A DNA stretch of 63,364 nt, counting the filler, from Chrysochromulina tobinii (Eukaryota), in the NCBI GenBank assembly GCA_001275005.1. It is 6 parts of 6 records of this genome, joined end to end, with 100 filler letters (N's around TTAATTAATTAA, not from the genome) between each part and the next. Parts side by side here need not be neighbours in the genome. Positions count along the whole stretch, not along the records: positions 27,424 to 47,888 come from JWZX01001446.1; 5 more parts are not named here. One strand, given 5' to 3'. Position numbers and translations under genes: made by a program. The notes under the pieces are model-generated. The model did not search any database. It had not been told where the DNA came from and worked only from the letters and a program-made list of their open reading frames with translations. This document shows positions 14,828-59,690 of the stretch, piece after piece; within the stretch, counting starts at the first letter, position 1, and every line of letters starts with the position of its first letter.

Positions 14828-14927
14828 NNNNNNNNNNNNNNNNNNNNNNNNNNNNNNNNNNNNNNNNNNNNTTAATTAATTAANNNNNNNNNNNNNNNNN
14901 NNNNNNNNNNNNNNNNNNNNNNNNNNN
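14828..14927. other. Artificial contig-join spacer (N44-TTAATTAATTAA-N44). Also at 27324-27423, 47889-47988, 55562-55661 and 59510-59609
   Basis: Identical 100-nt spacer with stops in all six frames, occurring five times. Confidence 0.97.
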
Positions 14928-27323: not shown

Positions 27324-27802
27324 NNNNNNNNNNNNNNNNNNNNNNNNNNNNNNNNNNNNNNNNNNNNTTAATTAATTAANNNNNNNNNNNNNNNNNNNNN
27401 NNNNNNNNNNNNNNNNNNNNNNNGTTCCGAGATCTGTCGATTGGCACCCTGCATTATGGTGCATTATCTCGCTAATAATGCGTAATAACGATGGTAATCA
27501 AGTTGCCCCGCCGACGCGAGAGCACCCCCGTCGCCGTTACACCCCCGTCGACTACCCTTGTTCCTTTCTTTATTCCATATTCGCGAATTCGTATTCCGGA
27601 GTTTCCCGTGCCGGCGTGGTCTGGCGTCTGCGGCCAGTGCGCGGGTCGCCGTGCGATGTGGATCAAGAATCAACTATCATGTTACAGCTTACACATGATG
27701 ATCACAATTCACATATAAATTGTAATGTCAAATGTGATATTTTTGTTCAGAAACGAAAGCTTCTTCTTTATACAGTTTCCTCACTCGCCCTGCCGACTTA
27801 AC

Positions 27803-29234: not shown

Positions 29235-31366
29235 ATGTTTGGCCGGATGAAGAAGGGCCACTTCGGTGGTTTGACTCCGCCACTGCCGGTGGACGAGAGC
29301 AGCAATGCGCCGGAGGCGGGCTCCTCTTCCGATGACGCCGTTGGAACTGAAGATGTAGTGGGATCGAAGAGGCCCCATCATCCGCCGGAAGTTCCAAAAG
29401 GCGAAGCAGCACCAGCAGCACCAGCAACGCTGAAGCTCAGCATGCCACCGCAGCACCAGCACCAATCAACACAGAGTCCTTTCGGTGCAGGGCTGCCCCC
29501 ACCGTCGGCCGCAACGATGGTGCCCTTGGCGGCGGCGCCGCCGCCGAAGCTGCAGGCCTCCAAGAGCGCGCTCTCAAACTTGAAGCTCCAAATCCCCGAT
29601 GCGGTGATGAAGGCGAGCGGGACAAGATTGACCTGCTGCACAGAGTGCGGGATGCGGGCTCAGCGCACGTTTGGCGAGTGCTCGCGCTGCTTCGGCATAA
29701 GCGTGTCGGCCGCATACTTGGGCCTTCGGCTGCTGCTGGCGGTGCCGCTCGGGCTGGCCGTCGGCGCGGCGGTGCTAGCGCTGCAGCTGCTCCTGTTCCT
29801 CGCGCTGCTGCTGCTGCTGCCGCTCGCGGCGCTCTTCGGCCTTCTGATGCCCGCCGAGAATGAGACACGCGCCAGCCCGATGGCGCTGCCCTCGAGACAC
29901 GTGGTCATACTCGGAGGCGGGGAAGGGCTCACGCGCGAGATCGCGCTCGAGTGCGTGCGGCGCGGCGCCGACGTCACCGTCCTCGCCGCCGAGTCGGACG
30001 CCCTCACTGCGACCTACGAGCTCATGAAAACGATTTCCCTCGAGCGACCGACGCAGGTGAGCGGTGCAAGGGCAGCAGCTGTGCTGCCTGCAAGTGCTCA
30101 CCACGGCGTCCTCACCTCTCCCCGCAGGCGAGCGAGCAACGCCAGCAGCTGCGCTGCTCGCCGCTCGAGCTCTCAGATGGGCCGATGGCCTGCTTCGTCG
30201 GGATGCAGAACGTGCTCGAGATCGTCGGCCGAATCGACTGCTTCGTGTGCCACCCGTCGGAGCTCTTTCTCGAGGTGCCCGGTGGTGTGAATGTGAAGAG
30301 AGGGACGTCGAACACTGGCAGCGACGGCGCTCAAGACGCCCACGACGGCGCTTCAGGCGCCCACGACGGCGCTTCAGGCGCCCCTGCAAGTGCGAACGCC
30401 CCTCTCGCCGATGCGCTCTGATGACGCCTCTGATGACCTCTCTGATGACGCCTCTGATGACATCCCTCATCAGGTGCAAGTGCGATCGCTCCTCTCGCCG
30501 ATGCGCGCATTGCCGAGGCGGTTCTGTGCTGCGTGTGGGCTGTACGCGCCATCGTATTCCCCATGCAACGGCAGGCGCACGGGCGCGTGATGGTGCTCGG
30601 CACGGCGCCTCCAGCTGCCTCGGCCGTGACTCGCCTCTCGTACAAGCTCGCTATGCAACGGCTCGCGCGCTCGCTCCGCGCCGAGTTGGGCGAGTTTGCC
30701 ATCCCCGTCTCGCTCGCATCGCCCCTCGGTGCCGATGAACCCTCGCCCAGGCGCGCCGACGCCAGCAGCGGCAGTGGCAGCAGCGGTGGCAGCGGCGGCA
30801 GCGGCGGCGGTTACGGCGGCGGCGGCGGCGGCTACGGCGGCGGCGGCGGCAGCTGCGCCGGGTGCTGGGCCGGCGCGTCGTCTCGGGCACCTCACCCCCT
30901 TGAGTACGCGGGCCACGTGGTGAGCAGCATGCTCGAAGGGGGTGCCCTCCATCTTCCCCAGCATGCAAGCGCTCACCACGGCGCCCTCTCCTCTCCCCAC
31001 AGGTGAGCAGCATGCTCGAGGGGGTGCCCTACATCTTCCCCCCCGGTGGCAGTCGACCGACGATGCGTTCCGGGTTGGGCGCCGTACTGGGCGCCCCGCT
31101 CGGCTACAATCGGCTCTGGCTGACGCTGCTGCTGCTGCACGCCTTCTCGCTGCCCATCGCCTCGCTCTACGAGGTAGGCCTACCGACCGCGTGGCTGCCC
31201 AGCAAGCAAGTGCTCACCACGGCGCCCTCTCCTCTCCCCACAGGTGGGCCTACCGACCGCGTGGCGCGAGGCCTGCACTCGCGCCCGCCTGCGCCTCGAG
31301 ACTTTCAGAACACAAAAGGAAGCTGCTAGACAGGGCTTCGCTCCCCTGCAAGAGCTCGAGGCGTAG
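29235..31366 (+). CDS. Membrane-anchored divergent SDR (KDSR-like fold). Introns 30057-30127, ~30378-30473 (donor uncertain), 30920-31002 and 31174-31243
   Basis: TM segment followed by HVVILGGGEGLTREIALECVRRGADVTVLA, GRIDCFV, PMQRQAHGRVMVLG and YKLAMQRLARSLRAELG. Splicing restores one continuous frame to TAG at 31366. Confidence 0.65.
30057..30127 (+). mobile_element. Introner-like intron, family A (GCAAGTGCTCACCACGGCG cassette). Other copies at 30920-31002, 31174-31243, 37095-37175 and 39331-39405
   Basis: A near-identical ~40-nt 3' cassette in five introns of three unrelated genes. In four of them the 5' part copies the downstream exon. Confidence 0.75.
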
Positions 31367-31744
31367 CGCCGTCCCGGGCAGATGTGCGTGTGGCTCATAT
31401 CATTCTCACATCTGGTCAGTATCTGCGGCGTACCCTCACGCTCGCAGGCGACGGCGGCAGCAGTCGACGAAAGTCTGCGGGATGCGAGATGCAGATAGTT
31501 TTGATCCCTTTACGCCATACGGTGAGTGCAGGGATGTGAGTCTGTGTCATTTTGGGGCCTGGCTCGTTACCCGGTACGTGTGTGGGTGAATTTAAAACAG
31601 GACCACACAGTACAGCGGCGCTCATGCAGGCGCGTCCCCGGGGGGGCGCGCTTACATGTGTGGGAAACACAGACTACAAACTCCGTCCTCACACCAATCC
31701 CTCACGGTGGAGACTTGTGTGCGCGGCCCAAGGGTGCGCGCGCG

Positions 31745-34700
31745 ATGTTGCACCTCATCGAGCAGGATTTGCGTGCGTTATCCGAGGTGCGCGATGCCCG
31801 CAAGTTTCCCGAGGTCAAGGAGGCGGCGGAACGGGCCCTTCTGCGTCTCCGCAGCATTGCGAAGGCCACTTCACCCTCTGCGCCAGCTGCGGAGCAGGCC
31901 CAGCAGGTGGCAGCCTCGGAGGAAATCCTCGTGCCCTTCATGCTTGCGCTTGCGAGCAAGAGCGAAGGGCTGCCGCTGGCAGCACTTGGTTCCGTCCAGC
32001 GCATGATCTCACACAATGCGGTCGCACCGCAACGGTTGCCGACAATCACGTCCCAGCTGATAGCACGGGCGCAGCTGCCCTCTGCGGACGAGCCCTCGCT
32101 CCTCAAGGTGTTGCAGACTGTGTTGACAATTGCCAGCTCTCCTGCACTCTTGCAATCGGACACGATCGTCGCACAACTTCTGCTACTGTGCCTGACGTTG
32201 CAGCAGTCCCGGGCGCCCACTGTCAAGGGTACGGCCTCGGCGATCGTTCAGCAATTCGTGGCGCTCCTGCTCGATCATGTGGCTGCCGAGGGCTTGCCAG
32301 CGGCGCCTGCTAAAGAGGGCGCTCTCGCGGCACCGACGGAGGAAGCGCTCAAATCTCTGAGTGTCGCGACGCGCTGTTCCTACCTCGCCATACGAGACCT
32401 GTGCTACTTGGCCAACGGCGAGCCCGCTCTCTGGCTACCGGGCTCTGGGCCCGTGGGCGTGCCATTCGCGCTCGAGGTCATTCAGCGCACGCTCCAGAGC
32501 CATAAGGCATTGTTCATCTCGCTCACGCCCTTCCGCTACTTGCTCCGTGAGCGCGTGTGTTCGCTGGTGCTCAAGACCATGCAGGCTCCGCAGCAAGAGT
32601 GGCCGGCGGCGCTGCGGCTGGCGCATCTCACCTCGACGCTCCTCTCGGGCTACGCCGCCGTGCTGCGCACGGAGTGCGAGATCCTCCTCTCGATGCTCGT
32701 CAAGACGGCCGCGGCCGAGGCCTCGCCCCTATGGCATCGGGCGCTCGCTCTCGAGGCTTGCCGGGTAGTTTCAGCGGACCCTCCGGGGCTCTACTCCCTC
32801 TTCGCGGCGTACGACATGGCCGCCAAGTCGGCGCCCCCCCCCAGCCTCACCAGCAGCCTCCGTGCTGAGCCCGCTGGCGTCTTCGCCTCCTTCGTCGCCT
32901 CCTTGTGCGGCCTGCTCAAGTCGCCGACGGTCAACTTTGCGATGCATGCCGAGTACATCGAGGCGCACTTTTTGCGCCAGCATCGCCAGATGCCCTCCGT
33001 CGAGCGGACCGCCACCTTCAACGTTGGGTTGTACTCCGAGGCCGATGGCACGCACCTCACCAATGATTACGCCGCATCGCTCGCCGTCGAGTGCCAAGTC
33101 TTCCTGGCGCGAGCAATCGGCTCCCTCGGCGAGACGCTGCGTGCCCGCGACGAGGCGGCGGCGGCGGACGATGCAGCCGGCGGACCGGCTACGAAGCCGT
33201 CGGCGTTGGAGAGCAAGTCGTCGGTGGCGCTCTCCGAGCCGATGGATCCGGCGGTGATGCGCGAGATGGTCGGCGTTTGTTGGCAGCCGCTCCTGTCCGC
33301 GCTCTCAGTCCTGATGGCACGCTTCAGCTCGGAAGAAGCGATCCAACTGATCCTTAAGTGCTATCAGGCCTTCACACAAGCCTGCGCGGCGCTGGAGCTC
33401 ACCGCGCCCAAAGAGGCCTTTCTGGCCTCCCTGTGCCATTCCTCTCTGCCGCAGGACCGGGCGTCGCGGGCGGGCGACACCACCTCCTTTTCTAGCCTCC
33501 AGGCCATGATCGACACCGCGTACGAGCCGCTGCCCCAGACGCGCCTCTCGGCGAAGAATGTGCAGGTGCGATCTCCTGGATGGTCCTTGATTTCGTTTGA
33601 TTGCGTGTGAATGCCCTCAACGCCGCGAAGAACGTGCAGGTGCGATCTCCCTTGATGGTCCTTGATTGCGTTTGATTGCGTTTGAATGCCCTCAACGCCG
33701 CGAAGAACGTGCAGGTGCGATCTCCCTTGATGGTCCTTGATTGCGTTTGATTGCGTTTGAATGCCCTCAACGCCGCGAAGAACGTGCAGGTGCAATCTCC
33801 CTGGATTGCGTCTGATTGCGTCTGATTGCGTCTGATTGCGTCTGATTGCGTCTGATTGCATCTGATTGCGTCTGATTGCGTCTGATTGCGTCTCACTGCC
33901 CTGTGTGCCGCGGAGCAGGCTCTCAAAGCGGTCTTCAACGTCGCGCACTGCATGGGAGACATGCTCGGCACCTCGTGGAATCTCGTGCTGAACGTGCTCG
34001 AGCACCTCGACAGGATCATTGCAAACTCGAAGACGACCACGGCCGGCGGGCAGACTACCATTGAGCGCGCCATCGCGACGGTCCACGGCGCGACTCCCGA
34101 GGCCACCTCGAACGAGCTCGCCATCCTGTCCGCGGCGCTCAACAACCTCTTTTCGGCGTCGACGAAGCTGAGCGACGTGGCGATCTCCCACTTCCTCACG
34201 GCGCTCTCGACGCAGAGCTTCTCCTCCCTCGCCCATGAGGCGACCTCCAAGGAGAAGCTCGCCACGCCTGGCTCGGCGGCGGCCCAGCCCACGCGCCTGT
34301 TTGCGCTCAACAAGTTTGTCGAGACCACGCTGATCAACCTGGAGCGTATCGCGGTGCTCTGGCCGATTGCGACGCAATTCTTGCTGCCCGTGGCCAACCA
34401 CCAAACGCAGCGGATCCGCGTCCTCGGTGTCGAGTCGCTCTCCAAGGTCGTCATCGCGGCGATGCGCCTCTACCTGAGCGACTCGCAGGCGATCGAGACG
34501 GGCTCGGGCGCGGAGGCGGCGCTCGGGACGGCGCGATGGCCACCGCACAAGGAGGGCAGCGCACGCGGCCTCGTGGGCACCTTTCCGAGCTCCTGGGACC
34601 GCGTGCTCCTCGCCCCCTTGGAGGAGTTGCAGCGTCGCTGCGCCTATCGTGAGACGCATGAGCGCATCTTGAGCTCCACTCACCAGGTACTGCAGGCATG

Positions 34701-37700
34701 CGGCGTCGGCCTGCGCGATGGCTGGCTGATGCTGCTCTCGATCCTTCATTGGGCGGCGACGAAGCAGAAGAATTTGGTGTCACTCGCCTTTCGTTCGGTC
34801 GAGTTGATCGCGTCTGACTTTTTGACCTTCCTTCCGTTGGCCTGCCTGCCCGCGTATGTCGAGGTCGCTGCCGCGTATGCGACTCAGACGGATCACCTCA
34901 ACGTGGCCCTGACGGCCATCGGCTTGCAGTGGACGATTTGTGACCACCTCTTCAAGGTCCAGTCGTTCGATGCCTCGGACGCGAGCAGCGACGCGGACGC
35001 GGCGTCCGACGCCCGCGACGGCGCCTCGGACGGCCTCGGGCCTGCTGCGCCCGGGACGGCGCCCGGGACGGCGCCCGGGACGGCGCCCGACGGCTCCGCC
35101 GTTGAGGAGGAAGGGGTCGCGTCCACGCCGCGCTACGCGCACCTCAACGTGCGCGATGACGTGCGCACTCCCGACGTGTGGCGTGCGAGTGTCACGTCCG
35201 TCCGCCGCCTGTGCGTCGACGTGCGCCCCGAAGTGCGCACGTGCGCGATGCACTCGTTCGTGTCCATCATCTCGTCGCATGGCAAGAACCTGCCCGGTCC
35301 CTTTTTGGACCATCTGCTCACCCGCACGCTGCATCCCATGCTGGACGAGATCGTGACCAAGACGGCGTCCGCCTCGACGATCTCGTCGGCGAGCGCCGCG
35401 AGCGCCAAGCTGGGCACCGAGGGCGGGCGGGATGTGATGATGATGGTCCATCACTCGCGTGACACGGAGGCTAAGCAGTGGGACGAGACATGGGTGCTCG
35501 CGCTCGATGCGGCCGTGCGGCTGTACCGCGGCTTCCTGCCTCAGCTGCTCAGCTGTGCTTCCTTTGAGCGAGCCTGGTCGACGCTGCTCGGGTTCGTCAA
35601 AAAGTCGCTCCTCTCGATGCCGCGCTCCTCGGAAGTGGCGCTCGCAAGTATCACCGCGGTGCACTCGCTCATGCTCTCCTCCGTGCAGCTCTCGACCCAG
35701 GGTGGCTCCTCTCCGCGCACCTCGTCCGACGATCCGGCCGCCACCGCGCCGGCGTCGCCCAAGTCGCCCCCGAGCTTGCAACGCGCCAACACAGTGCCCG
35801 CCAAGGCGCTGGTGCCCGTCGCGTCGCCAGCCGACGGGCCGGGGTCCGCCGTACAACTGGCCAGTGGTCTGATGAGCATCGCCGCCAGCACGGCCCCCGT
35901 CGAGCGCGAGCGCCTGCCGCCGAAGCTGTGGGCTTCTGTCTGGTCGATGCTCGAAACGGCCATCGAGCAGGCGACCTCGGACGCCAGCACCTTCGCCACG
36001 CATGAGAAGATGCTCTGCGCCCTCGCGAACCGCACCGCCGATCTGTACGAGGGCGGCCGCGGCTATTTCGAAGAGGCGGACGTGCTCCGGCTGCTCCAGC
36101 TCGCCGAGCGTCTCGTGCGCTCTCCGGAGCGCCCCCTTGGCTGGGAGCCAACGGAGCCTACGTGTGCCCCGAGCGCGCTCCAGAACGCGGTGCTCAACCT
36201 GCTCTCGAAGCTGCCTCCGTTTCTGATTGCATGCTGATTGCATCGCTGAGTGCATGCTGATTGCCTCCTCCCTCATCAGGTGCTCAACCTGCTCTCGAAG
36301 CTGCCTCCGTTTGGGTCGCCGGGCGTGAGGGAGGACGAGATGTGGCCGCTGCTGCTCTGGCTGCTCCTCAAGCTGCTCGAGCCGCCGTCCGCCCCGACGC
36401 CCGTCGCGCTCACCAGCCCAGCGGCGACGGCCAAGGCGCCCGCCGTGGCGGGCGGCCGAGGCGCCGTGGCGGGCGGCCCGACCGGATTCGGCGAGAAGTG
36501 CTACCAGCTGCTGCACCGGCTGCTGACCGAGGAGGCGAGCCCCGCTGCCAAGATGGCCTCTAATGAACGCTAATGAGCGCTGATGACCTCTGATTGCTGA
36601 CCGAGGAGGCGAGCCCCGCTGCCACGATGGCCTCTAATGAACGCTAATGAGCGCTCATGACCTCTGATTGCTCCCCTCATCAGGCGAGCCCCGCTGCCAA
36701 GATGGCCGTCGCCGAGGATGTCCTCAACGTGACGCGTCGAATTATGGCCTGGCGCCTCAACGAGGCCTGCCAGTCTCCCGGGCTGCCACGCGCCGTCGCG
36801 GCCGGGTTCGTCACTCTCCTCGAGGCGATCTTGGCGCATCTCCCGTCGCCCGCCGCCGACCCCATGCTCGCCGAGCGAGCGCACCACGAGCTCGTCGAGG
36901 CGCTCTGGACGCGCCTCTCGCCACAGGCGCTTGTGGCGTCCTCGGGCTTCGCCGAAGCCTCAATCGGGCCGCCCGTGGCGGCGCCTCTCGGACCGGTCAC
37001 CGCCGAGGTGGACCTGCTTCCTTTTCTGCTCTCGGTCTGCTCGGACTTGGAGGAGACGAAACTCATGGAGAGCACGCTGACGGGCGCTCGTTCGGTACTC
37101 CGCGCGGCGTCCATGAAGTCGGAGCATCGCTCGCATGCAAGTGCTCACCACGGCGCCCCGTCCCCTTCCCCACAGGTACTCCACGCGGCGTCCATGAAGT
37201 CGGAGCATCGCACGCGGCTGCTGCTGATGCTGTGTGCCGTTCTCCGTCTCCCGATGCATGCAGCCGTCGCGTGCGATGCATGCTGGCGCGAGGCCGTCAC
37301 AGCGCTCTGCATGCTGAGCTCCTCCACGGGTGGTGCTCAGGACGGCGCGTGCGCGAGCTTGACCGTGCCTAATGGTGCTCAGGACGGCGCTCGAGGAGCT
37401 CAGGACGGCGCGTGTGCGAGCTTGGCCGCGCCTAAGCTGCTGCAGGTAGCACGCGTCGTCCTCAACGGCTGGGCCGACGTGGAGGGCGTCAAGGAGGAGG
37501 GCGCGCCCGTTACGGCGCGTGGCGGTGTTGCGGGCGTGGAGGACGTCAAGGAGGAGAGCATGCTCGCGCTGAGGGCGGCCCAGATCGCGCATTTGCTTTC
37601 ACACCTGAGCAGCATGCGGCTCGCTGAAGGCGCCCTGCCGGCTCCCAACTCGCAAGGTCGTTCGATCCCCGCGCGGATCGCACCTGCGATGATCCAGTGT

Positions 37701-37856
37701 ATCGGCGAGCCCAGAGCCCTCTTCGCGCGGGGCAAGGTCCCAGTGCAGGTGCTCGAGCTCCAATCTGCGATCCGGACTGCTATGCAAGGGGTGGCCGCCG
37801 AGCTGGGCCTTGGGACGGAGTCTTCGGTCTCGTCCGTTTCGTCAGAGGTGCACTGA
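31745..37856 (+). CDS. MON2: Protein MON2 homolog. Introns 33566-33918, 36190-36279, 36535-36683 and 37095-37175
   Basis: DLRALSE..KFPEVKEAAE N-terminus, LKVLQT, KNVQ|ALKAVFNVAHC across a splice, NVALTAIGLQW and MVHHSRDTEAKQWDET. Confidence 0.9.
36190..36279 (+). mobile_element. Introner-like intron, family B (CTGAT repeats ending CCTCATCAG). Other copies at ~30378-30473, 36535-36683, 61790-61961 and 62130-62297. A related intron lies at 33566-33918
   Basis: 33-bp perfect copy of the downstream exon, then CTGATTGC-type repeats and the shared CCTCATCAG acceptor. Confidence 0.75.
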
Positions 37857-38115
37857 GGGACGTGCGGCGCTGAGGGACGCGCGGTGCTGAGCGTGCAGTC
37901 GGCGCCCGCCATGGCGTGACTGCGTCCGACCGGTGCACTGTGCAAGAGCTCGGAACAGGGAACATGCGTCCGGGGTCTTCGGTGAGAAACTGGAAAGTAT
38001 GTGTGTGTGTGGGCGTAGGCGGTGAACGCAGTGTGATTGTATAAAGAGAGGGTGCGCGTAATGTTCACAGCCTATACACCTGTATTCACACGGCGCTTCG
38101 CGGGTGCCAACGACT

Positions 38116-40161
38116 ATGCCGCCGAGAGGCAGCCGGCTGCTCTCCTCCGTGCTGGCCGCACGTGCCGGCGGTGGCGCAGAGGTGCTGGCCTTCAAGGCAT
38201 CGGTCGATGAGCTCTCGCGCCTCAGCACCGCGCGAGCTCAGGACGAGGCGCTGCTCCAGCAGATCTCGGCGCAGCTGCACAGCCTTGAGCCGGCCGTCTG
38301 CGCGCGGCTGCTCACCGAGTGCCGCTTCCGCGACGAGTGGCGTCAGGAGAAGTGCGAGCGTGCACTGCAGCAGCTGCCCAGCAGCGAGCAGGATCCGGAG
38401 ACCGTCGACCGCATGCGCGAGTACATCGCGATGCTGGCGCCTGACGAGGACCTCGGCCCACTCGAGCCCGGCTGGCAATCGGAGCTGCTGCGGCAGCAGC
38501 GCACGCTCGCGAGCCTTCTGACGCTGTGCGCGGGCGGCTCGTCGGACCGCGTGCAGACCGTGCTCAGCGACTTTATGGAGAACTCGCGCAGCCGGCTGCA
38601 CGCGGCGCTCACCTCGGTGCACGAGGAGCTCCTCGAGGCGGCGGCGAGCGGCCACTGCGCACGCGCGCCGGCGCGCGTGTCGGGGTGCGGAGGAGGGCTG
38701 TCGCCGAGCTCGTCGCCGCTCAAGCAGCAGCCGCAGCCGCAGCCGCCGCCGTTCCGGTCCGCACCGGGCGCGCCCCACCCCATTTATGCTGAGGCGGCGT
38801 GGGGGGGGGCTCCGCCGCAGCTCTCGCCCAGGCACGTGTGGGGTTCCGAAACGGAGGCGGCCGCGCGCCCCGGTACAGCTGAGGTGCGCGGCGCGCCGGT
38901 CAAGCCCGGCGGTCCCGGCGGTTCAACGGGCGGCGTGCGCGGCCTCTCTGCGGAGGGCTTCGTCGCGCAGCTGCGAGGGCAGCACCGCGCCGTATGCACC
39001 ATTCAGGCAGCCGTCCGAGGTCGGAGGATGCGGGCGGCGTACCGACGGCGGGTGAACCGTCGGATCGGGGCGGCGGTGCGGCTCCAGTGCTGCGCACGCC
39101 GGTGGGTCGCGAGGCGCGCTCTCCGGGTGCAGCGCGAGCGACGCGTACTGGCCGCCCGACGAGCGCTGCGAGAATGGCACGCAGCTCGGCGGGTGCAGCG
39201 CGCGTGGCGCTGGGCGCGGCGCAAGCGGCGCTGGACGGCGGCGTGGCGCGCGCAGATGGCGCACGCGGCCGGTGCCGACGACAAGGCGTGGCGCGCCATG
39301 CTCAAGCGTTCGCTGCTCCCCAAGACGCAGGTAACCTCGAGGAGAGCTGGGAAGCGGTTCAAGCATGCATGTGCTCACCACGGCGCCGTGCCCCTTTGTT
39401 CACAGGAGGCGACTGGATTCTCGCAGTACGCCCTGTACACCGAGTCCAAGGTGCTCGCGACGCGACGGGCGAAGGAGGAGGGGAGCGCGCAGCGGCTGCA
39501 GGCGGCGGTACGCGCCTTGAAGGTTCGGGTGCTCTGGCGCAAGCTGCACCGCGCCGCGAGCGTGCTACAGGCCGGTGTGCGCCGCTGGCGTGTCTGCAAT
39601 CGAGAGTGCCCATGGCGGCGCGCGCTGCGACGGCACCACGCAACAAGGCGCTCGCGACGGCGCTGGCGCTCGCAGCGCGCGGCGGCGCTCGCGCTCCAGC
39701 CGCTCCAGACGCGCGCTGTGCTGGTGCAGCTGCACGTGAGCAAGGAGCTGGAGCATGTGTACGAGGAGGTGCTGCGCGAGAAGCGCGACTTTGAGAGCGC
39801 CTTCCGCAAGTGGGCGGCCAAGATGGAGAAACTCACGCTGGCGAAGAAGCTGCATGCGGACTGGATCCCGCAGATGAACGTGGAGCGGGGCGAGTCTTAC
39901 TTTTTCAACGTGCGTACCGGGGAGTCGTCCGAGGAGCACCCGAACATGAAGGAGGTGCGTAAGACGGAGAAGAAGCAACGCAAGCTCGCCGAAGAGGCGA
40001 TGGAGGAGAGGCTCGCGCGCCTGCAAGGCTACGAGGAGCAGCTGCGCGACGCGCTGCGCACGGAGCTCGAGGCCTACGCCGAGCAGGCCGCCAAGGTGGC
40101 CGCCGAGGCGGCCGTGCTCGCGCAGGTGGCGCAGCAAGGCATTCGATATGTAGTTCGGTAG
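38116..40161 (+). CDS. IQ-motif and WW-like domain protein. Probable in-frame intron 39331-39405
   Basis: Multiple IQ motifs (TIQAAVRGRRMR, RLQAAVR, VLQAGVRRW) and WW-like DWIPQMNVERGESYFFNVRTGESSEEHP. Confidence 0.75.
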   Translation: MPPRGSRLLSSVLAARAGGGAEVLAFKASVDELSRLSTARAQDEALLQQISAQLHSLEPAVCARLLTECRFRDEWRQEKCERALQQLPSSEQDPETVDRMREYIAMLAPDEDLGPLEPGWQSELLRQQRTLASLLTLCAGGSSDRVQTVLSDFMENSRSRLHAALTSVHEELLEAAASGHCARAPARVSGCGGGLSPSSSPLKQQPQPQPPPFRSAPGAPHPIYAEAAWGGAPPQLSPRHVWGSETEAAARPGTAEVRGAPVKPGGPGGSTGGVRGLSAEGFVAQLRGQHRAVCTIQAAVRGRRMRAAYRRRVNRRIGAAVRLQCCARRWVARRALRVQRERRVLAARRALREWHAARRVQRAWRWARRKRRWTAAWRAQMAHAAGADDKAWRAMLKRSLLPKTQVTSRRAGKRFKHACAHHGAVPLCSQEATGFSQYALYTESKVLATRRAKEEGSAQRLQAAVRALKVRVLWRKLHRAASVLQAGVRRWRVCNRECPWRRALRRHHATRRSRRRWRSQRAAALALQPLQTRAVLVQLHVSKELEHVYEEVLREKRDFESAFRKWAAKMEKLTLAKKLHADWIPQMNVERGESYFFNVRTGESSEEHPNMKEVRKTEKKQRKLAEEAMEERLARLQGYEEQLRDALRTELEAYAEQAAKVAAEAAVLAQVAQQGIRYVVR

Positions 40162-47476: not shown

Positions 47477-48137
47477 GAGTAGAGATTTTTGGTTTCGAGA
47501 CGTACATACAGTAGACAGTATACTGAGTAGAGCAGTACAAGACGCCCCGGTATATAATGTACAGCAGAAGCAATCATCAAAAAGACAAAACCGCCGAGAA
47601 CGGTCGCATACGAGCATGGCCTTTTTCATGCTCGTCACGGCCGACGACCCAAAGAGCACCAAGACGGCCATGCGCCGCATGCGACCGTTCTCGATGGGTC
47701 CGTCGAATTGGGACGATTCCTTTTGCAGGAAGCATCTCATGAGTGATATCTAGGCGCTCGCAGCGACGATGAGGGGCGCTGACGCGGTCCGTTCACACCC
47801 TATTCTCTCTTCGTTCACAGTTCGTCGATCTGTGAACTGAACTGTGAATGGTTGGGTACTGACCCCAGGCCGAGGCTACATTGAGCTGNNNNNNNNNNNN
47901 NNNNNNNNNNNNNNNNNNNNNNNNNNNNNNNNTTAATTAATTAANNNNNNNNNNNNNNNNNNNNNNNNNNNNNNNNNNNNNNNNNNNNCGGGGACGACAA
48001 GCCCGTCGCTCAACGTGGCGGCGCTCAAGTCGAGGCTGGCGAGGCTGCGTGCGCGCCCGTGAAGGGCTTGAGAGAGAGCCTGGGGCGCGGGCGGGCGGCG
48101 CGGTGGTCGTGGTGCATGGCGTGGCATGGCATGGCGT

Positions 48138-49285: not shown

Positions 49286-49934
49286 GCAAACGCCCGAACC
49301 CCTCGTGCCTGGTGAGCGGTCCTTTCGAAGACCAAGCCGCCGCAGCCCAACGCGGATTCTCTGTGCGCTGCTGGGTGAAAAAGGGCGACAAGAAGGTGCG
49401 TCACCACAGCCCGAGCCCATACCCCACCACACCTATGACTCCGTGTTGCCTGCCACCATTCCGCAGTACTACTTTGTGATTATAATTACAGCGCACCCGC
49501 GGACAGGCTGCGCCTACGCCAGGGAGCTGACGGTGCTCGCGCTCCTCGGCATTCCTTCGATTCCCGGCTCGTTTGAATTCCGGCGCCCCCCGCGCACCGC
49601 GGAAGACGTGGCGAAGTACATGAACCGCGATCCACCGTTTCAATCACTTCCGCGGCGCTTCGGCCAAACGATCACGGGTGTGCTGCCGGAACCAGCCTCC
49701 AGCTTGTACGCAGCCTCGCTAGTGAGCCAGGCCGAGAGTCTCCGGTTGGAAGCGAGTTTGTCTACAGGGGACGCATTGTGAGCCTGCGCCGTGCAGGTGG
49801 TGGCGTAGAATAGCGTCTAAGCGGCAGCGGCGAGAGCCTACATATGTGTAACGTATGTTTTTGAATCGTGGCGCGCAGATGCGGCTATTACAACTGCAAA
49901 AAAATGCAATAAAATGGGCGGGGGGAGGGATGGT

Positions 49935-52880
49935 TTACGGCCGCCAGTGTCCCAAGCCGACCCGAGGAGGCCACGTTTTATGATCCGAGGCGGTCGAAGG
50001 GTCCGTCGGGATACTATCGATACCCCCTGATAAAAAACGGCTCACCTCGGTGCGCGACGGGTCGGCTCCGGGTGGCTTTGTGCGAGGGGGTCCGGGTTGC
50101 CGGCGGCGGGGGGGGGGAAGGCTCACCGGCCGGCAGGGCCCCAAGACGACCCGAGGAGGCCACAGGTGGAGATCTGAGGCGGCAGAAGGGTCCGTCGGGA
50201 TGCTATCGATACCCTCTGATAGTAAACGGCTCACCTCGGCGCGCGACGGGTCGGCTCCGTGTGGCTTTGTGCGAGGGGGTCCGGGTTGCCGGCGGCGGGG
50301 GTGGGAAGGCTCACCGGCTGTCTGTGTCCCAAGACGACCCGAGGCGGCTTCAGGTGGAGATCCGAGGCGACAGAGAAGTCCGTCGGGATGCTATCGATAC
50401 CCTCTGATAGTAAACGGTTCGCCTTGGCGCGCGATGGGTCGGCCCCGGGTGGCATTTACGCGAGGGGGGTCCGGGTGGCCGGCGGCGGGTGGTGGGAAGG
50501 CTCACCGGCCGTCAGTGTCCCAAGACGACCCGAGGAGGCTTCAGGTGGAGATCTGAGGCGGCAGAGAGGTCCGTCGGGATGCTATCGATACCCTCTGATA
50601 GTAAACGGTTCGCCTTGGCGCGCGATGGGTCGGCCCCGGGTGGCGTTTACGCGAGGGGGATCTGGAAGCCGGCGGCGGGGGGTGGGAAGGCTCACCGGCC
50701 GGCAGGGCCCCAAGACGACCCGAGGAGGCCACAGGTGGAGATCTGTGGCGGCAGACAGGTCCGTCGGGATGCTACCGAGACCCCCTGATAGTGAATGGCT
50801 CACCTCGGTGCGCGACGGGTCGGCTCCGGGTGGCGTTTGTGCGAGGGGGATCTGGAAGCCGGCGGCTGGGGGTGGGAAGGCTCACCGGCCGGCAGTGTCC
50901 CAAGACGACCCGAGGAGGCCACAGGTGGAGATCTGAAGCGGCAGAGAGGTCCGTCGGGATGCTACCGAGACCCCCTGATAGTGAATGGCTCACCTCGGTG
51001 CGCGACGGGTGGGCTCCGGGTGTCTTTGTGCGAGGGGGGTCCGGGTGGCCGGCGGCGGGGGTGGAAAGGCTCACCGGCTGTCTGTGTCCCAAGACGACCC
51101 GAGGAGGCCACAGGTGGAGATCTGAGGCGGCAGAGAGGTCCGTCGGGATGCTATCGATACCCTCTGATAGTAAACGGTTCGCCGTGGCGCGCGACGGGTC
51201 GGCTCCGGCCGGCTTTGTGCGAGGGGGATCTGGTGGCCTGCGGCGCGGGGGATGGGAAGGCTCACCGGTCGTCAGTGTCCCAAGACGACCCGAGGAGGCC
51301 ACAGGTGGAGATCCGAGGCGGCAGAGAGGTCCGTCGGGATGCTATCGATACCCCCTGATAGTAAACGGCTCACCTCGGCGCGCGACGGGTCGGCTCCGGG
51401 TGGCGTTTACGCGAGGGGTATCTGGAAGCCGGCGGCGGGGGGTGGGAAGGCTCACCGGCCGGCAGGGCCCCAAGACGACCCGAGGAGGCTACAGGTGGAG
51501 ATCTGAGGCGGCAGAGAGGTCCGTCGGGATGCTATCGATACCCCCTGATAGTAAACGGCTCGCCTTGGCGCGCGATGGGTCGGCCCCGGGTGGCGTTTAC
51601 GCGAGGGGGATCTGGAAGCCGGCGGCGGGGGGTGGGAAGGCTCACCGGCCGGCAGGGCCCCAAGACGACCCGAGGAGGCCACAGGTGGAGATCTGAAGCG
51701 GCAGACAGGTCCGTCGAGATGCTATCGATACCCCCTGATAGTAAACGGCTCACCTCGGCGCGCGACGGGTCGGCTCCGGGTGGCGTTTGTGCGAGGGGGA
51801 TCTGGAAGCCGGCGGCTGGGGGTGGGAAGGCTCACCGGCCGGCAGGGCCCCAAGACGACCCGAGGAGGCCACAGGTGGAGATCTGTGGCGGCAGATAGGT
51901 CCGTCGGGATGCTACCGAGACCCCCTGATAGTGAATGGCTCACCTCGGTGCGCGACGGGTGGGCTCCGGGTGGCGTTTGTGCGAGGGGGTCCGGGTGGCC
52001 GACGGCGGGGGGTGGGAAGGCTCACCAGCCGGCAGTGTCCCAAGACGACCCGAGGAGGCCACAGGTGGAGATCCGAGGCGGCAGAGAGGTCCGTCGGGAT
52101 GCTATCGATACCCCCTGATAGTAAACGGCTCACCTCGGCGCGCGACGGGTCGGCTCCGGGTGGCTTTGTGCGAGGGGGTCCGGGTGGCCGGCGGCGGGGG
52201 GTGGGAAGGCTCACCGGCTATCAGTGTCCCAAGACGACCCGAGGAGGCTTCAGGTGGAGATCTGAGGCGGCAGAGAGGTCCGTCGGGATGCTTTCGATAC
52301 CCTCTGATAGTAAACGGTTCGCCTTGGCGCGCGATGGGTCGGCCCCGGGTGGCATTTACGCGAGGGGGATCTGGAAGCCGGTGGCAGGGGGTGGGAAGGC
52401 TCACCGGCCGGCAGGGCCCCAAGACGACCCGAGGAGGCCACAGGTGGAGATCTGTGGCGGCAGAGAGGTCCGTCGGGATGCTACCGAGACCCCCTGATAG
52501 TGAATGGCTCACCTCGGTGCGCGACGGGTGGGCTCCGGGTGGCGTTTGTGCGAGGGGGATCTGGAAGCCGGCGGCGGGGGGTGGGAAGGCTCACCGGCCG
52601 TCAGTGTCCCAAGACGACCCGAGGAGGCTTCAGGTGGAGATCCGAAGCGGCAGAGAGGTCCGTCGGGATGCTATCGATACCCCCTGATAGTAAACGGCTC
52701 ACCTCGGCGCGCGATGGGTCGGCTCCGGGTGGCTTTGTGCGAGGGGGTCCGGGTGGCCGGCGGCGGGGGGTGGGAAGGCTTTAGGAAGGCTCACCGGCCG
52801 GCGGTGTCCCATGACGACCCGAGGAGGCCACAGGTGGAGATCAGAGGCGGCAGAGAGGCCCGTCGGGATGCTATCGATAC
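49935..52880. repeat. Satellite array of ~190-bp units, about 16 copies
   Basis: Anchor CAAGACGACCCGAGG recurs at about 50142, 50330, 50521, 50711, 50901, 51090, 51281, 51471, 51661, 51851, 52041, 52230, 52420 and 52610, with degenerate end copies. Confidence 0.97.
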
Positions 52881-53020: not shown

Positions 53021-55561
53021 CTAACCTCTACCGACGTTTGGCCAACTATCTCCTTCGAGAAGGAGCTTAAAACCTGCCTTTCCTTGCAGTGCGTTGCGAA
53101 TCAAGGCCCTAGCTTCCTCGCCCTCGCTTCCTTGCCCAAAATCGGGCCCAAGACATGTGGACAGGTCGATGCTCGTCAGCGCGCCATTCACGCTGAGGGC
53201 ATCAGCGAGAACCTTGACACCGGACAAGTCTGGCAAATCGGAGTACCAGAGGTCGCCGTTATTAAGGAAATCAAGGACGATGCGTCCACCTTTCAATCTT
53301 TGGCCAACTTCGAAATAATCGTCCCCTTCAGAGTTAACACCTTGATATCTGTTGCCTCCTTTACAATAATCTTCGTCTTCATAGTCAACGCCAGAGCCGC
53401 CTTTGAAGGTGTGCGTGATGGTCCAACCACAGAGATTGTTGGACGAGAGATTGAGACTCATCAGCGCGCCGTTGACGCGCATGGCATCGGCAATCGCTGT
53501 TAAGCCCTTTGCACAGTAAGTTCCGCGGTTGTATTTGGAACAGTTCTGACCTGGCCCGCTAACCAGCCTTGCGGCGTCCAACTCGACGCCGCACAGCTCG
53601 TTGTTGCTGAGGCTCAGCTGCGTGAGCGTCGCGTTCGTCTGGAGCGCCTCGCCCATCGCCTTGCCGCTCTCCGCGCCGAGCTCGTTGCCCCCCAAGTCGA
53701 GCTGCGTCAGCGTCGTGTTCGTCTGGAGCGCCATCGCGAGCTCGCAGCCGCCCGCATCGCCCAGCTTGTTGTTGTTGAGGCTCAGCTGCTTCAGCGTCGT
53801 GTTCGTCTGGAGCGCCTCGCCCATCGCTTTGCCGCTCTCCGCGCCGAGCTCGTTGCCCCCCAAATCGAGCTGCGCCAGTGTCGTGTTCTTCTTGAGCGCC
53901 ACTGCGAGTGCGCAGCCGCCCGCATCGCCCAGCTTGTTGCTCTTGAGGCTCAGCTGCTTCAGCGTCGTGTTCGTCATGAGCGCCTCGACCACCGCCTTGC
54001 CACTCTCCGCGCCGAGCTCGTTGCCCCCCAAATCGAGCTGCGCCAGTGTCGTGTTCTTCTTGAGCGCCACTGCGAGTGCGCAGCCGCCCGCATCGCCCAG
54101 CTTGTTGCTCTTGAGGCTCAGCTGCTTCAGCGTCGTGTTCGTCATGAGCGCCTCGACCACCGCCTTGCCACTCTCCGCGCCGAGCTCGTTGCCCCCCAAG
54201 TCGAGCTGCGCCAGCGTCGTGTTCTTCTTGAGCGCCACTGCGAGTGCGCAGCCGCCCGCATCGCCCAGCTTGTTGTTGTTGAGGCTCAGCTGCTTCAGCG
54301 TCGTGTTCGTCATGAGCGCCTCGACCACCGCCTTGCCACTCTCCGCGCCGAGCTCGTTGCCCCCCAAGTCGAGCTGCGCCAGCGTCGTGTTCTTCTTGAG
54401 CGCCACTGCGAGTGCGCAGCCGCCCGCATCGCCCAGCTTGTTGCTCTTGAGGCTCAGCTGTGTCAGCGTCGTGTTCGTCTGGAGCGCCTCGACCATCGCC
54501 TTGCCGCTCTCCGCGCCGAGCTGGTTGCCACCCAAGTCGAGCTGCGCCAGCGTCGTGTTCGTCTGGAGCGTCGCAAACACCTGCAGGCCCTCGCCATCAG
54601 TCAACTTGTTCTCTCGCAGGCTGAGCGACGCCAGCCCACGCATCAACTCGGCCACCGCAGCGACCATCGTCGGCCGATCTCCCCCAATGAGTTTCTGGCT
54701 CAGGTCGAGCTCATCACCGGCCCCGGCTGTCTGCTTCAGCCCCTTGCCAAAGGCGTCGCCCATCTCGCTGCCGAGCGTGACCGCATTGGCCCAAAACGCA
54801 GGCCATTGCCACGGTGGCGGCGACCCCTCAGGGAGGCGGTACTTTCCCGAGCAGATGGCGTTTACTGCAAAGTACTCTTGGAAGGAGAGGTGCGCCGACT
54901 GCATCTGGAGCGGCTCGACCTGCAGCAGGCTGAGAAGAGGGAGCCTATCCTGTCCCACGCGCTCGCCAACCTGCGCGACCGCCGTCCGCTCCTCATCACG
55001 CAGCGCCTGGACCGCGCCGTCCAGGGCAGGAAGGCGCTCCGCGTCCGCTCTCGCCATCTGCGCCCGGCAAGCAGCTTCATCCAGCCCGGACGATACGAGC
55101 TGCCTGGGCTCCAGCCACCCCGTTGTGGCGCCGTCCGCCAGCTTGACCTTGTATGGCTTGTCTGTTTTGTCGTCCTCGACGATCACGCCACGTTGGCCCT
55201 TCCGCTCGCCGTCCAGCAGCTCCACGTAGTGGCCCTTCTCCGGCCGGCCCTTGAACGTCTGGAAGGGGTTTGCCACCTTCGCATCCAGGTCGGCGAGCGT
55301 CCCCGGCGGCGCAAAGGCGCCCAGCGCCGCGCGGAGGAGCTGCACCTCGGTGATCACGCGCGCCTGCGCCACGTGCGCCTCGAAGAACACGGCTTCCAGC
55401 AGCGTGCGCACTTCTGCCGTCACGCCGCCGCCGCGCGCGAGCATCGCGTCCGATGCGAACGCGTACAGCTCGGCGACCGTCTTCGGCATGCCCAGCCCTT
55501 TGCGGATCTCGAAGACCGACGCGACCATCGAGAGCATCAGCGGGTTGGCCGTGACGCGATG
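53021..55561 (-). CDS. NACHT-LRR (NLR-like) protein, C-terminal part, 5'-truncated by gap
   Basis: TANPLMLSM, PKTVAELY, FFEAHVAQ, HLSFQEYF and PPWQWPAFWAN are shared with the first NLR. Alternating 28-aa RI-type LRRs follow. Confidence 0.88.
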   Translation of the reverse strand, partial: HRVTANPLMLSMVASVFEIRKGLGMPKTVAELYAFASDAMLARGGGVTAEVRTLLEAVFFEAHVAQARVITEVQLLRAALGAFAPPGTLADLDAKVANPFQTFKGRPEKGHYVELLDGERKGQRGVIVEDDKTDKPYKVKLADGATTGWLEPRQLVSSGLDEAACRAQMARADAERLPALDGAVQALRDEERTAVAQVGERVGQDRLPLLSLLQVEPLQMQSAHLSFQEYFAVNAICSGKYRLPEGSPPPWQWPAFWANAVTLGSEMGDAFGKGLKQTAGAGDELDLSQKLIGGDRPTMVAAVAELMRGLASLSLRENKLTDGEGLQVFATLQTNTTLAQLDLGGNQLGAESGKAMVEALQTNTTLTQLSLKSNKLGDAGGCALAVALKKNTTLAQLDLGGNELGAESGKAVVEALMTNTTLKQLSLNNNKLGDAGGCALAVALKKNTTLAQLDLGGNELGAESGKAVVEALMTNTTLKQLSLKSNKLGDAGGCALAVALKKNTTLAQLDLGGNELGAESGKAVVEALMTNTTLKQLSLKSNKLGDAGGCALAVALKKNTTLAQLDLGGNELGAESGKAMGEALQTNTTLKQLSLNNNKLGDAGGCELAMALQTNTTLTQLDLGGNELGAESGKAMGEALQTNATLTQLSLSNNELCGVELDAARLVSGPGQNCSKYNRGTYCAKGLTAIADAMRVNGALMSLNLSSNNLCGWTITHTFKGGSGVDYEDEDYCKGGNRYQGVNSEGDDYFEVGQRLKGGRIVLDFLNNGDLWYSDLPDLSGVKVLADALSVNGALTSIDLSTCLGPDFGQGSEGEEARALIRNALQGKAGFKLLLEGDSWPNVGRG

Positions 55562-56100
55562 NNNNNNNNNNNNNNNNNNNNNNNNNNNNNNNNNNNNNNN
55601 NNNNNTTAATTAATTAANNNNNNNNNNNNNNNNNNNNNNNNNNNNNNNNNNNNNNNNNNNNTGCCGGCAACCATCGTCGTACTCATCCTTCCGGAATCGT
55701 GAGGGAGTACAAGGTCAGACCCGCTTTCAGGCACTGTTCTTCACAGCCAGAGAGAACTTTGTAACTTACCAAGCTACCCACACATTGGCAGGACCCCCTG
55801 AATTGCGGTGGGGGAATTTGAAGGGGGTGTCAGCGTGGGAGTAAGGCGGCATGCGGCATGGAACATGGAACGGCACCTGTTGACACGACGGGACCCGGGC
55901 ATGGAAACCTGCTTGTTCTCCTCGTTGCTTGTTCTCCCCGTTGCTTGCCGTGGGCTCGGTGCTCGTCGTCAGTCCTTACTGTCGGGGCTTGAACCCCTCC
56001 GGTCTCTTGTTGTCTGTTTCATATCGTCGTTCACAGTTCTCGCCTCGCTCTGGAACCGTGACTGTGACGCTTTTTCATGGGCGTGTCGTCCCGCGCACTC

Positions 56101-59509: not shown

Positions 59510-59690
59510 NNNNNNNNNNNNNNNNNNNNNNNNNNNNNNNNNNNNNNNNNNNNTTAATTAATTAANNNNNNNNNNNNNNNNNNNNNNNNNNNNNNNNNNN
59601 NNNNNNNNNGCGCCGCACCCCCGCGTGCTCGCCCACGCTCCTCGCGTGCTCTGGCACTCGATGACGCCGCGTGTGCTGCATTTGCCACAG

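What the first reader, a model, noticed from the sequence alone, without database searches (positions are those of the whole stretch)
30057..39405. Family A cassette: fixed ~40-nt 3' module in five introns of three genes
Seen: (GCA)AGTGCTCACCACGGCGCCC-pyrimidine tract-CACAG closes the introns at 30057-30127, 30920-31002, 31174-31243, 37095-37175 and 39331-39405 (70-83 nt), always in sense orientation. It contains a branch-point-like GCTCAC, a pyrimidine tract and CAG, so it is a portable 3' half-intron. The 39331 copy has little remaining exon similarity, which may reflect an older insertion.
Basis: partly seen in the sequence, partly recalled or inferred. Interest (0 to 1): 0.8.

Follow-up and report, generated by a model that had tools for sequence, protein, structure and literature searches.

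The report
Introns built from copied half-introns
In this genome, likely a haptophyte alga's, many introns consist of a short copy of the next exon joined to the back half of another intron, likely pasted in through an RNA template, which makes a likely still-active route of intron birth traceable from parent to daughter.

Summary
The five copies are real (5 matches, 0.06 expected). RNA contigs splice three cleanly, one weakly and the fifth not at all.

A metagenome scan gave 223 distinct sites. Only a 24-nt branch-point core and the CACAG end are fixed; the pyrimidine tract differs in 118 of 132 copies. In 120 of 171 testable introns the 5' part copies the next exon's first ~14-44 nt and starts at GT/GC in 109, so the duplication supplies the donor and splicing restores the mRNA.

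Some daughters carry 19-34 nt of a named parent's exon-derived 5' part, two with its private tract, between unrelated genes and within one gene. One 81-nt intron is present in one strain and absent in a 98.4%-identical one.

Best reading: 3'-anchored intron-to-intron copying with a long target duplication (0.9), probably RNA-templated (0.55). The introner survey I read needs similarity at both intron ends and would filter this out. 'Older insertion' for 39331 is untested.

The parts
30057..30127 (+). Family A intron 1 (71 nt): diverged copy of the next exon (30057-30087), core 30086-30109, tract and CGCAG; often retained
   Evidence: spliced in X13, X14; unspliced in X15-X17 contigs; exon copy alignment
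30920..31002 (+). Family A intron 2 (83 nt): 40-nt copy of exon 31003-31041, core 30961-30984, tract and CACAG
   Evidence: 12-nt junction loose end in X17; stop if retained and 38/40 match
31174..31243 (+). Family A intron 3 (70 nt): 22-nt copy of exon 31244-31265, core 31202-31225; tract identical to intron 2's, 241 nt away
   Evidence: spliced in X15, X16, X17, not in DNA X1
37095..37175 (+). Family A intron 4 in MON2 (81 nt): 40-nt copy of exon 37176-37215, core 37133-37156
   Evidence: spliced in X13, X14, X18; 38/40 match; junction gap-free against P0001 and P0002
39331..39405 (+). Putative Family A intron 5 (75 nt, in frame): core 39363-39386; 5' 32 nt match neither flanking exon nor any held locus
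   Evidence: no RNA joint seen
29235..31340 (+). Host gene 1, short-chain dehydrogenase-like; frame open to at least 31340 when four introns are removed
31745..37856 (+). Host gene 2, MON2 homologue (about 1813 aa, four introns)
38116..40161 (+). Host gene 3, no Pfam hit in the two exon pieces scanned
30390..30473 (+). Sister-family intron (CTGAT repeats, CCTCATCAG end) with the same next-exon copy
   Evidence: spliced in X15, X17
36190..36279 (+). Sister-family intron with a 33-nt next-exon copy
   Evidence: spliced in 4 of 4 RNA runs
33566..33918 (+). Intron of another family in MON2: GT-bearing module followed by copies of the upstream exon end, repeated in tandem
   Evidence: spliced in 4 of 4 RNA runs; sequence

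Best explanation
These are young spliceosomal introns whose 3' part is copied from an existing family member and whose 5' part is a duplicate of the next exon's first 14-44 bases, likely made when a nick at a cryptic GT donor primes reverse copying of intron-bearing RNA. Shown: the anatomy (exon copy X, linker, 24-nt core, tract, AG, X again); splicing from the GT at the start of the first X to the AG removes the insert without changing the protein; copying is anchored at the parent's 3' end and reaches a variable distance 5', from just past the core to nearly the whole parent intron; parents lie in the same gene or in unrelated genes; one site differs between strains. Inferred: the template-strand nick at the start of X, copying of spliced-out intron or pre-mRNA from its AG end, joining of the copy to the end of X by microhomology, a second nick 14-44 nt downstream that yields X twice, and selection for totals of at least about 65 nt. 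GCTCAC as branch point is predicted from consensus and its distance (median 27 nt) to the intron end. The enzyme is unknown. Odds: intron-to-intron copying with target duplication 0.9; RNA template given that, about 0.6.
For: Exon copy anchored at the acceptor in 120 of 171 sites versus 0.3% of mismatched controls; it starts GT in 99 and GC in 10 of 120. Rebuilt targets are donor-like: G at -1 in 74% versus 28% of other exonic GT, G at +5 in 67% versus 34%. Parent-daughter sharing limited to the intron: L096 to L023 89 nt at 96.6%, L019 to L105 69 nt at 100%, both with the same private tract; L116 to L029 73 nt at 93% reaching back to the parent's donor; L026 3976 to 5674 within one locus; the shared 5' bases match the parent's own exon, which gives direction. 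L032 has an 81-nt intron that L004 lacks, flanks 98.4% over 1514 nt; its tract and 8 upstream bases equal those of the intron 524 nt away. For an RNA or transcription link: same strand as other intron motifs in 109 of 112 informative AG copies and 27 of 28 core-only copies; 2 of 142 sites in non-coding runs that make up 13% of 303 kb; neighbours share core variants in 26 of 73 pairs versus 10.3 expected.
Against: No reverse transcriptase or autonomous element was found or searched for, as no genome is held. Mirror-image introns exist (donor-bearing module plus upstream-exon copy), and core-only inserts truncated at the 3' side occur (48 sites without tract and AG by the strict rule, 23 by the loose rule), while 5'-truncated cores are few (4 listed of 124); both fit DNA template switching better. 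At least one copy looks antisense (L051/L121) and one inverted (L030). Selection alone can give sense bias, since the antisense core holds a GTGAGC donor. L016 gives 10 of the 26 shared pairs, and mean tract distance within loci is no lower than between (5.6 vs 5.9, p 0.23). 51 of 171 sites have no anchored duplication. The L032/L004 difference could be loss between the repeats. Loci were picked by a cassette match, so genic enrichment is partly built in.
Confidence: 0.55

Rival explanations
1. Same copying, but at DNA level: during replication or break repair the new strand leaves the end of X, copies a nearby or distant intron by microhomology, and returns upstream at a GT that resembles the parent's AG|GT junction. 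Selection keeps the sense, in-register products.
For: Microhomology at 5' junctions (X reaches the core in 20 of 94, examples); 3'-truncated core-only inserts flanked by duplications; mirror-type introns; local copying; tandem re-duplication in 17 of 120; L019/L105 share 7 exon bases past the AG (1.2% of random pairs).
Against: Neutral products should be common in silent DNA and in both orientations; only 7 of 223 sites are standalone without an AG and 2 of 142 lie in non-coding runs. The other traced pairs with an acceptor share only 1-4 exon bases, as random pairs do.
Confidence: 0.3
2. A short non-autonomous element (SINE- or MITE-like introner) with one master copy and fixed ends that makes an unusually long target-site duplication.
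For: Sharp 5' edge at GCATGC and a conserved 24-nt core; introners are reported in many Chrysochromulina MAGs; Replitron-1 makes variable duplications and carries parental flanks (PMC10288648 passages).
Against: No terminal inverted repeat, no Rfam match, no stable fold (z -1.2 to +1.4), 118 tracts in 132 copies, and many different parents.
Confidence: 0.08
3. A generic branch-point enhancer kept or spread by gene conversion in old introns.
For: 51 of 171 sites lack an anchored exon copy; neighbours share variants.
Against: Exon copies in 120 of 171; an empty allele in an open frame; other spliced introns of the same genes lack the core.
Confidence: 0.03

Closest known systems
Introners, including the Symbiodinium type that carries its 3' splice site and takes the 5' site from the target duplication (10.1101/2022.06.06.494994 / PMC9860276; passages and supplement rows seen)
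   Same: Many related introns at new exonic sites; strong gene bias; acceptor carried, donor taken from the duplication; haptophyte genomes host introners.
   Different: There the duplication is 3-9 bp (4 bp in the examples) and similarity must reach both intron ends. Here the duplicate is 14-44 nt and forms the intron's whole 5' part, there are no TIRs, and parents are ordinary family introns. The paper's Chrysochromulina example carries the 5' site instead.
Intron transposition / reverse-transcription template switching (PMC3443670 passages; fungal introner-like elements as discussed in PMC8469720 passages)
   Same: An existing intron is the source; sense orientation; RNA step proposed; enzyme unknown.
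   Different: Those are described as whole introns inserted seamlessly, without duplications in the Hypoxylon case. Here mostly the 3' part moves and a long duplication supplies the donor. L029 looks like the near-whole-intron limit.
Intron gain by tandem genomic duplication (PMC3443670 passages)
   Same: Duplicated exon sequence supplies a splice site and splicing restores the mRNA.
   Different: There both sites come from a duplicated AGGT. Here branch point, tract and AG are imported from another intron.
Intron gain by staggered double-strand-break repair in Daphnia (PMC4202315 passages)
   Same: Direct repeats at young introns; presence/absence in populations; later internal re-duplication.
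   Different: There the source of most inserts is unknown. Here the source is traceable to other introns of one family.
Target-primed reverse transcription of non-LTR elements (recalled, no call)
   Same: Fixed 3' end, variable 5' reach, variable duplication, microhomology at the 5' junction.
   Different: No poly(A) or repeat tail, no master RNA or enzyme found; 3'-truncated and mirror products occur.

Membership tests
Introner (as defined in PMC9860276) | Multi-copy family of spliced introns at unrelated sites | tested here: met
   223 sites; three window copies spliced
Introner (as defined in PMC9860276) | Similarity between introns reaches near both splice boundaries | tested here: not met
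   5' part is site-specific exon copy in 120 of 171; criterion read
Introner (as defined in PMC9860276) | Recent gain, presence/absence | tested here: met
   1 whole intron and 2 tandem copies one-sided versus 22 shared in 15 strain pairs; polarity inferred
MITE-type DNA-transposon introner | Terminal inverted repeats | tested here: not met
   no shared terminal arms in the five window introns
MITE-type DNA-transposon introner | Short fixed-length target duplication (3-9 bp) | tested here: not met
   median 26 nt, 5-95% range 14-44
SINE / non-LTR retroelement | Variable duplication and variable 5' end | tested here: met
SINE / non-LTR retroelement | tRNA/7SL/5S head or poly(A)/repeat tail from a master copy | tested here: not met
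   no Rfam match in the window; no tail in listed copies
SINE / non-LTR retroelement | Partner reverse transcriptase in the genome | not testable with these tools
   no genome held
Fungal introner-like element | Whole-intron copy, stable hairpin, no duplication | tested here: not met
   fold z -1.2 to +1.4; long duplications
Tandem-duplication intron | Both splice sites from the duplicated exon | tested here: not met
   acceptor lies in the imported module; 23 of 94 targets share no base upstream with the AG end
U2-type spliceosomal intron | Branch at the A of GCTCAC | not testable with these tools
   consensus-like, median 27 nt from the intron end; needs lariat reads

The most novel reading that the evidence does not exclude
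A transposon-free intron factory: host repair or reverse-transcription machinery copies halves of ordinary introns into cryptic splice sites of transcribed genes, every copy can parent the next, several families and both polarities use it, and it has made thousands of introns in haptophytes while staying invisible to introner screens that need both ends to match.
Probability: 0.4. Interest if true: 0.9.

Novelty: new variant of a known kind. Interest (0 to 1): 0.76.

Why it matters
How new spliceosomal introns arise is a long-standing question, and the source of most young introns is unknown (PMC3443670, PMC4202315 passages). Here each event records its parent (carried-over exon bases, private tract), its target (the duplicate) and its age (duplicate divergence), and one site differs between strains. 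One good assembly could therefore give a genealogy of intron birth and separate RNA from DNA templating. The family fails the both-ends filter of the introner survey I read, so such gains may be undercounted elsewhere.

Tried and rejected
No whole genome is held, so a genome-wide count was replaced by a metagenome scan that stopped after 9 of 64 parts. Rfam: 0 matches. RNA folding of the five introns: not significant. Terminal inverted repeats: none shared. Guide-like pairing of core to target, suggested by a 16-nt inverted match at 30910-30925: rejected, 3.72 matches outside the donor versus 3.85 expected over the GT-donor sites. Age correlation: none. Codon-model orientation: too noisy, 139 of 172 sense and 16 strongly negative, mostly windows running into the next intron; replaced by intron-motif markers, 83 of 223 sites uninformative. 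Source of the 39331 5' part: no match in 438 kb held. Viral contigs: one hit, L129, which looks like host DNA in the 661 bases read; no sign of a viral vector. Of 51 shared-linker pairs (controls 0-5) I set aside those that were one site in two assemblies, tandem arrays, or a shared CTGAT-type linker. The negative link between duplicate and module length (rho -0.75, n 65) is partly built in by how the duplicate's end is called. Earlier scan findings: none. Literature: ten searches listed nothing describing this anatomy; I read passages of eight works only, and the introner supplement was cut when stored and seen in part.
Full report
Observation. The 19-mer occurs five times in the window, all on the + strand at the stated introns, against 0.06 expected (alignment). 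The host genes are an SDR-like gene, MON2 and an unnamed gene. MON2's best named hit is Emiliania huxleyi at 44%, so the organism is probably a haptophyte; I did not determine the species.

Splicing. RNA contigs join 30057-30127, 31174-31243 and 37095-37175 at GT..AG. A DNA run laid on 30000-31400 shows no such join. 30920-31002 rests on a 12-nt loose end in one contig and a stop if retained. 39331-39405 is in frame, stop-free and unseen in RNA. 30057-30127 is read through in X15, X16 and X17 contigs, one of which splices the next intron, so it is often retained.

Family sample. No genome is held. A metagenome scan gave 128 loci from 9 of 64 parts; with the window that is 438 kb. These hold 302 core hits (0 in a shuffle), 223 distinct sites, 175 with a tract and AG, 171 testable. 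Seventy exact 26-mer sites were seen in assemblies I grouped as one strain; Chao1 gives about 340. Exact copies are a minority (1 of 5 in the window, 4 of 92 off-centre sites), so the total is likely in the thousands; this is a rough inference.

Anatomy. The fixed part is a 24-nt core and the CACAG end; the tract takes 118 forms in 132 copies. In 120 of 171 sites the intron begins with a copy of the next exon's start (controls 0.3%), median 26 nt, beginning GT in 99 and GC in 10; about half of the other 11 follow a CAG. Rebuilt targets look like donors. Splicing from the first copy's GT to the AG leaves the mRNA unchanged: the 37095 junction aligns without a gap to P0001 and P0002, while P0003 is gapped nearby and P0004 does not align there. 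Young introns are 65 nt or longer, which suggests the duplicate also pads the module to a spliceable size; the supporting correlation is partly artefactual.

Source. Fifty-one site pairs share sequence just upstream of the core, against 0-5 in shifted controls; some are one site in two assemblies or a shared repeat linker and were set aside. The rest include cases where the shared bases match one member's own exon, which marks it as the parent. L096 to L023 (89 nt, 96.6%) and L019 to L105 (69 nt, 100%) also share a private tract, and the loci are otherwise unrelated. L096 also gave L014, L116 gave L029 and L026, and within L026 one intron seeded another 1.7 kb away. L029 carries the parent's 5' part back to its donor and has no duplicate of its own. 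Neighbours share core variants in 26 of 73 pairs (10.3 expected, p 0.0006), 10 of them from L016; mean tract distance shows no local effect (p 0.23), though near-identical tracts do (7 of 90 versus 1.3%, p 0.001).

Activity. L032 holds an 81-nt intron that L004 lacks, with flanks 98.4% identical. The empty site lies in an open frame, the duplicate is exact, and the tract equals that of the intron 524 nt away. Across 15 strain pairs (22.5 kb aligned) 22 sites are shared and 3 one-sided, two of them tandem re-duplications. Gain is the simpler reading; loss between the repeats is not excluded.

Orientation and place. Copies lie on the strand of other intron motifs in 109 of 112 informative AG sites and 27 of 28 core-only sites, with 83 uninformative. 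On reading, two of the three AG exceptions look sense and L051/L121 looks antisense. A codon model was weaker: 139 of 172. Two of 142 sites fall in non-coding runs covering 13% of 303 kb; 7 of 223 are standalone without an AG. Loci were chosen by a cassette match, which inflates this.

Mechanism. A fixed 3' end at the parent's AG, variable 5' reach, variable duplication, junction microhomology, sense and gene bias together resemble target-primed reverse copying (recalled from non-LTR elements), with intron-bearing RNA as template. Against it stand 3'-truncated core-only inserts, few 5'-truncated cores, and mirror-type introns that carry a donor and copy the upstream exon end (a catalogue that includes false antisense reads). 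These fit DNA template switching with selection. I put copying from existing introns at 0.9, RNA-templated copying at 0.55 overall, DNA switching at 0.3. No TIR, Rfam family, stable fold, guide pairing or viral link was found.

The 39331 copy. Its 5' 32 nt match neither exon (score 14 versus 13 control) nor any held locus. Duplicate divergence does not track core divergence. It may be old, may carry an unsampled parent's 5' part, or may not be spliced.

Known systems. Introners that carry the acceptor and take the donor from a 4-bp duplication are described, and Chrysochromulina MAGs have many families. That survey required similarity near both intron ends, which this family fails. Passages of PMC12130899, PMC11282704, PMC3443670, PMC8469720, PMC4202315, PMC10288648 and PMC4580454 describe neighbouring mechanisms but not this anatomy. 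Ten searches listed no such report; the library lacks most subscription journals, and the introner supplement was seen only in part. Verdict: a new variant of intron transposition, works like an introner but fails its definition; interest 0.76.

Noticed in passing
window 14828-14927, 27324-27423, 47889-47988, 55562-55661, 59510-59609: Five N-runs with a TTAATTAATTAA spacer: the window is several contigs joined by an artificial linker, so neighbours across them are not real.
   Followed up: yes
window 30390-30473, 36190-36279, 36539-36684, 61790-61961, 62130-62297: A second family (CTGAT-type 10-nt repeats, CCTCATCAG end) with the same next-exon copy; the first two are RNA-confirmed. At 30390 the used donor lies 6 nt into the copied stretch.
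   Followed up: partly
window 33566-33918; L026, L046, L064, L065, L002: Mirror-type introns: a GT-bearing repeat module followed by a copy of the upstream exon end that can supply the AG.
   Followed up: partly
L020, L021, L028, L039, L044, L053, L071: Hybrid subfamily in which a CTGAT-type stretch precedes the Family A core, often with the same core variant.
   Followed up: partly
window 30057-30127: Intron retained in the main contigs of three RNA runs and spliced in two; retention gives an early stop. Could be weak splicing or regulation.
   Followed up: partly
window 49920-52853 and 53590-54729: Tandem arrays of about 190 nt (15 copies) and 84 nt (11 or more copies).
   Followed up: no
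window 30910-30925 with 30971-30986: The core's reverse complement reads like an exon end plus a GTGAGC donor and pairs 14/16 with this intron's own donor region; not general across sites. The core may descend from an inverted donor region.
   Followed up: yes
L129: One 4.5-kb contig of the viral collection holds the core next to intron-type repeats; looks like host DNA.
   Followed up: partly
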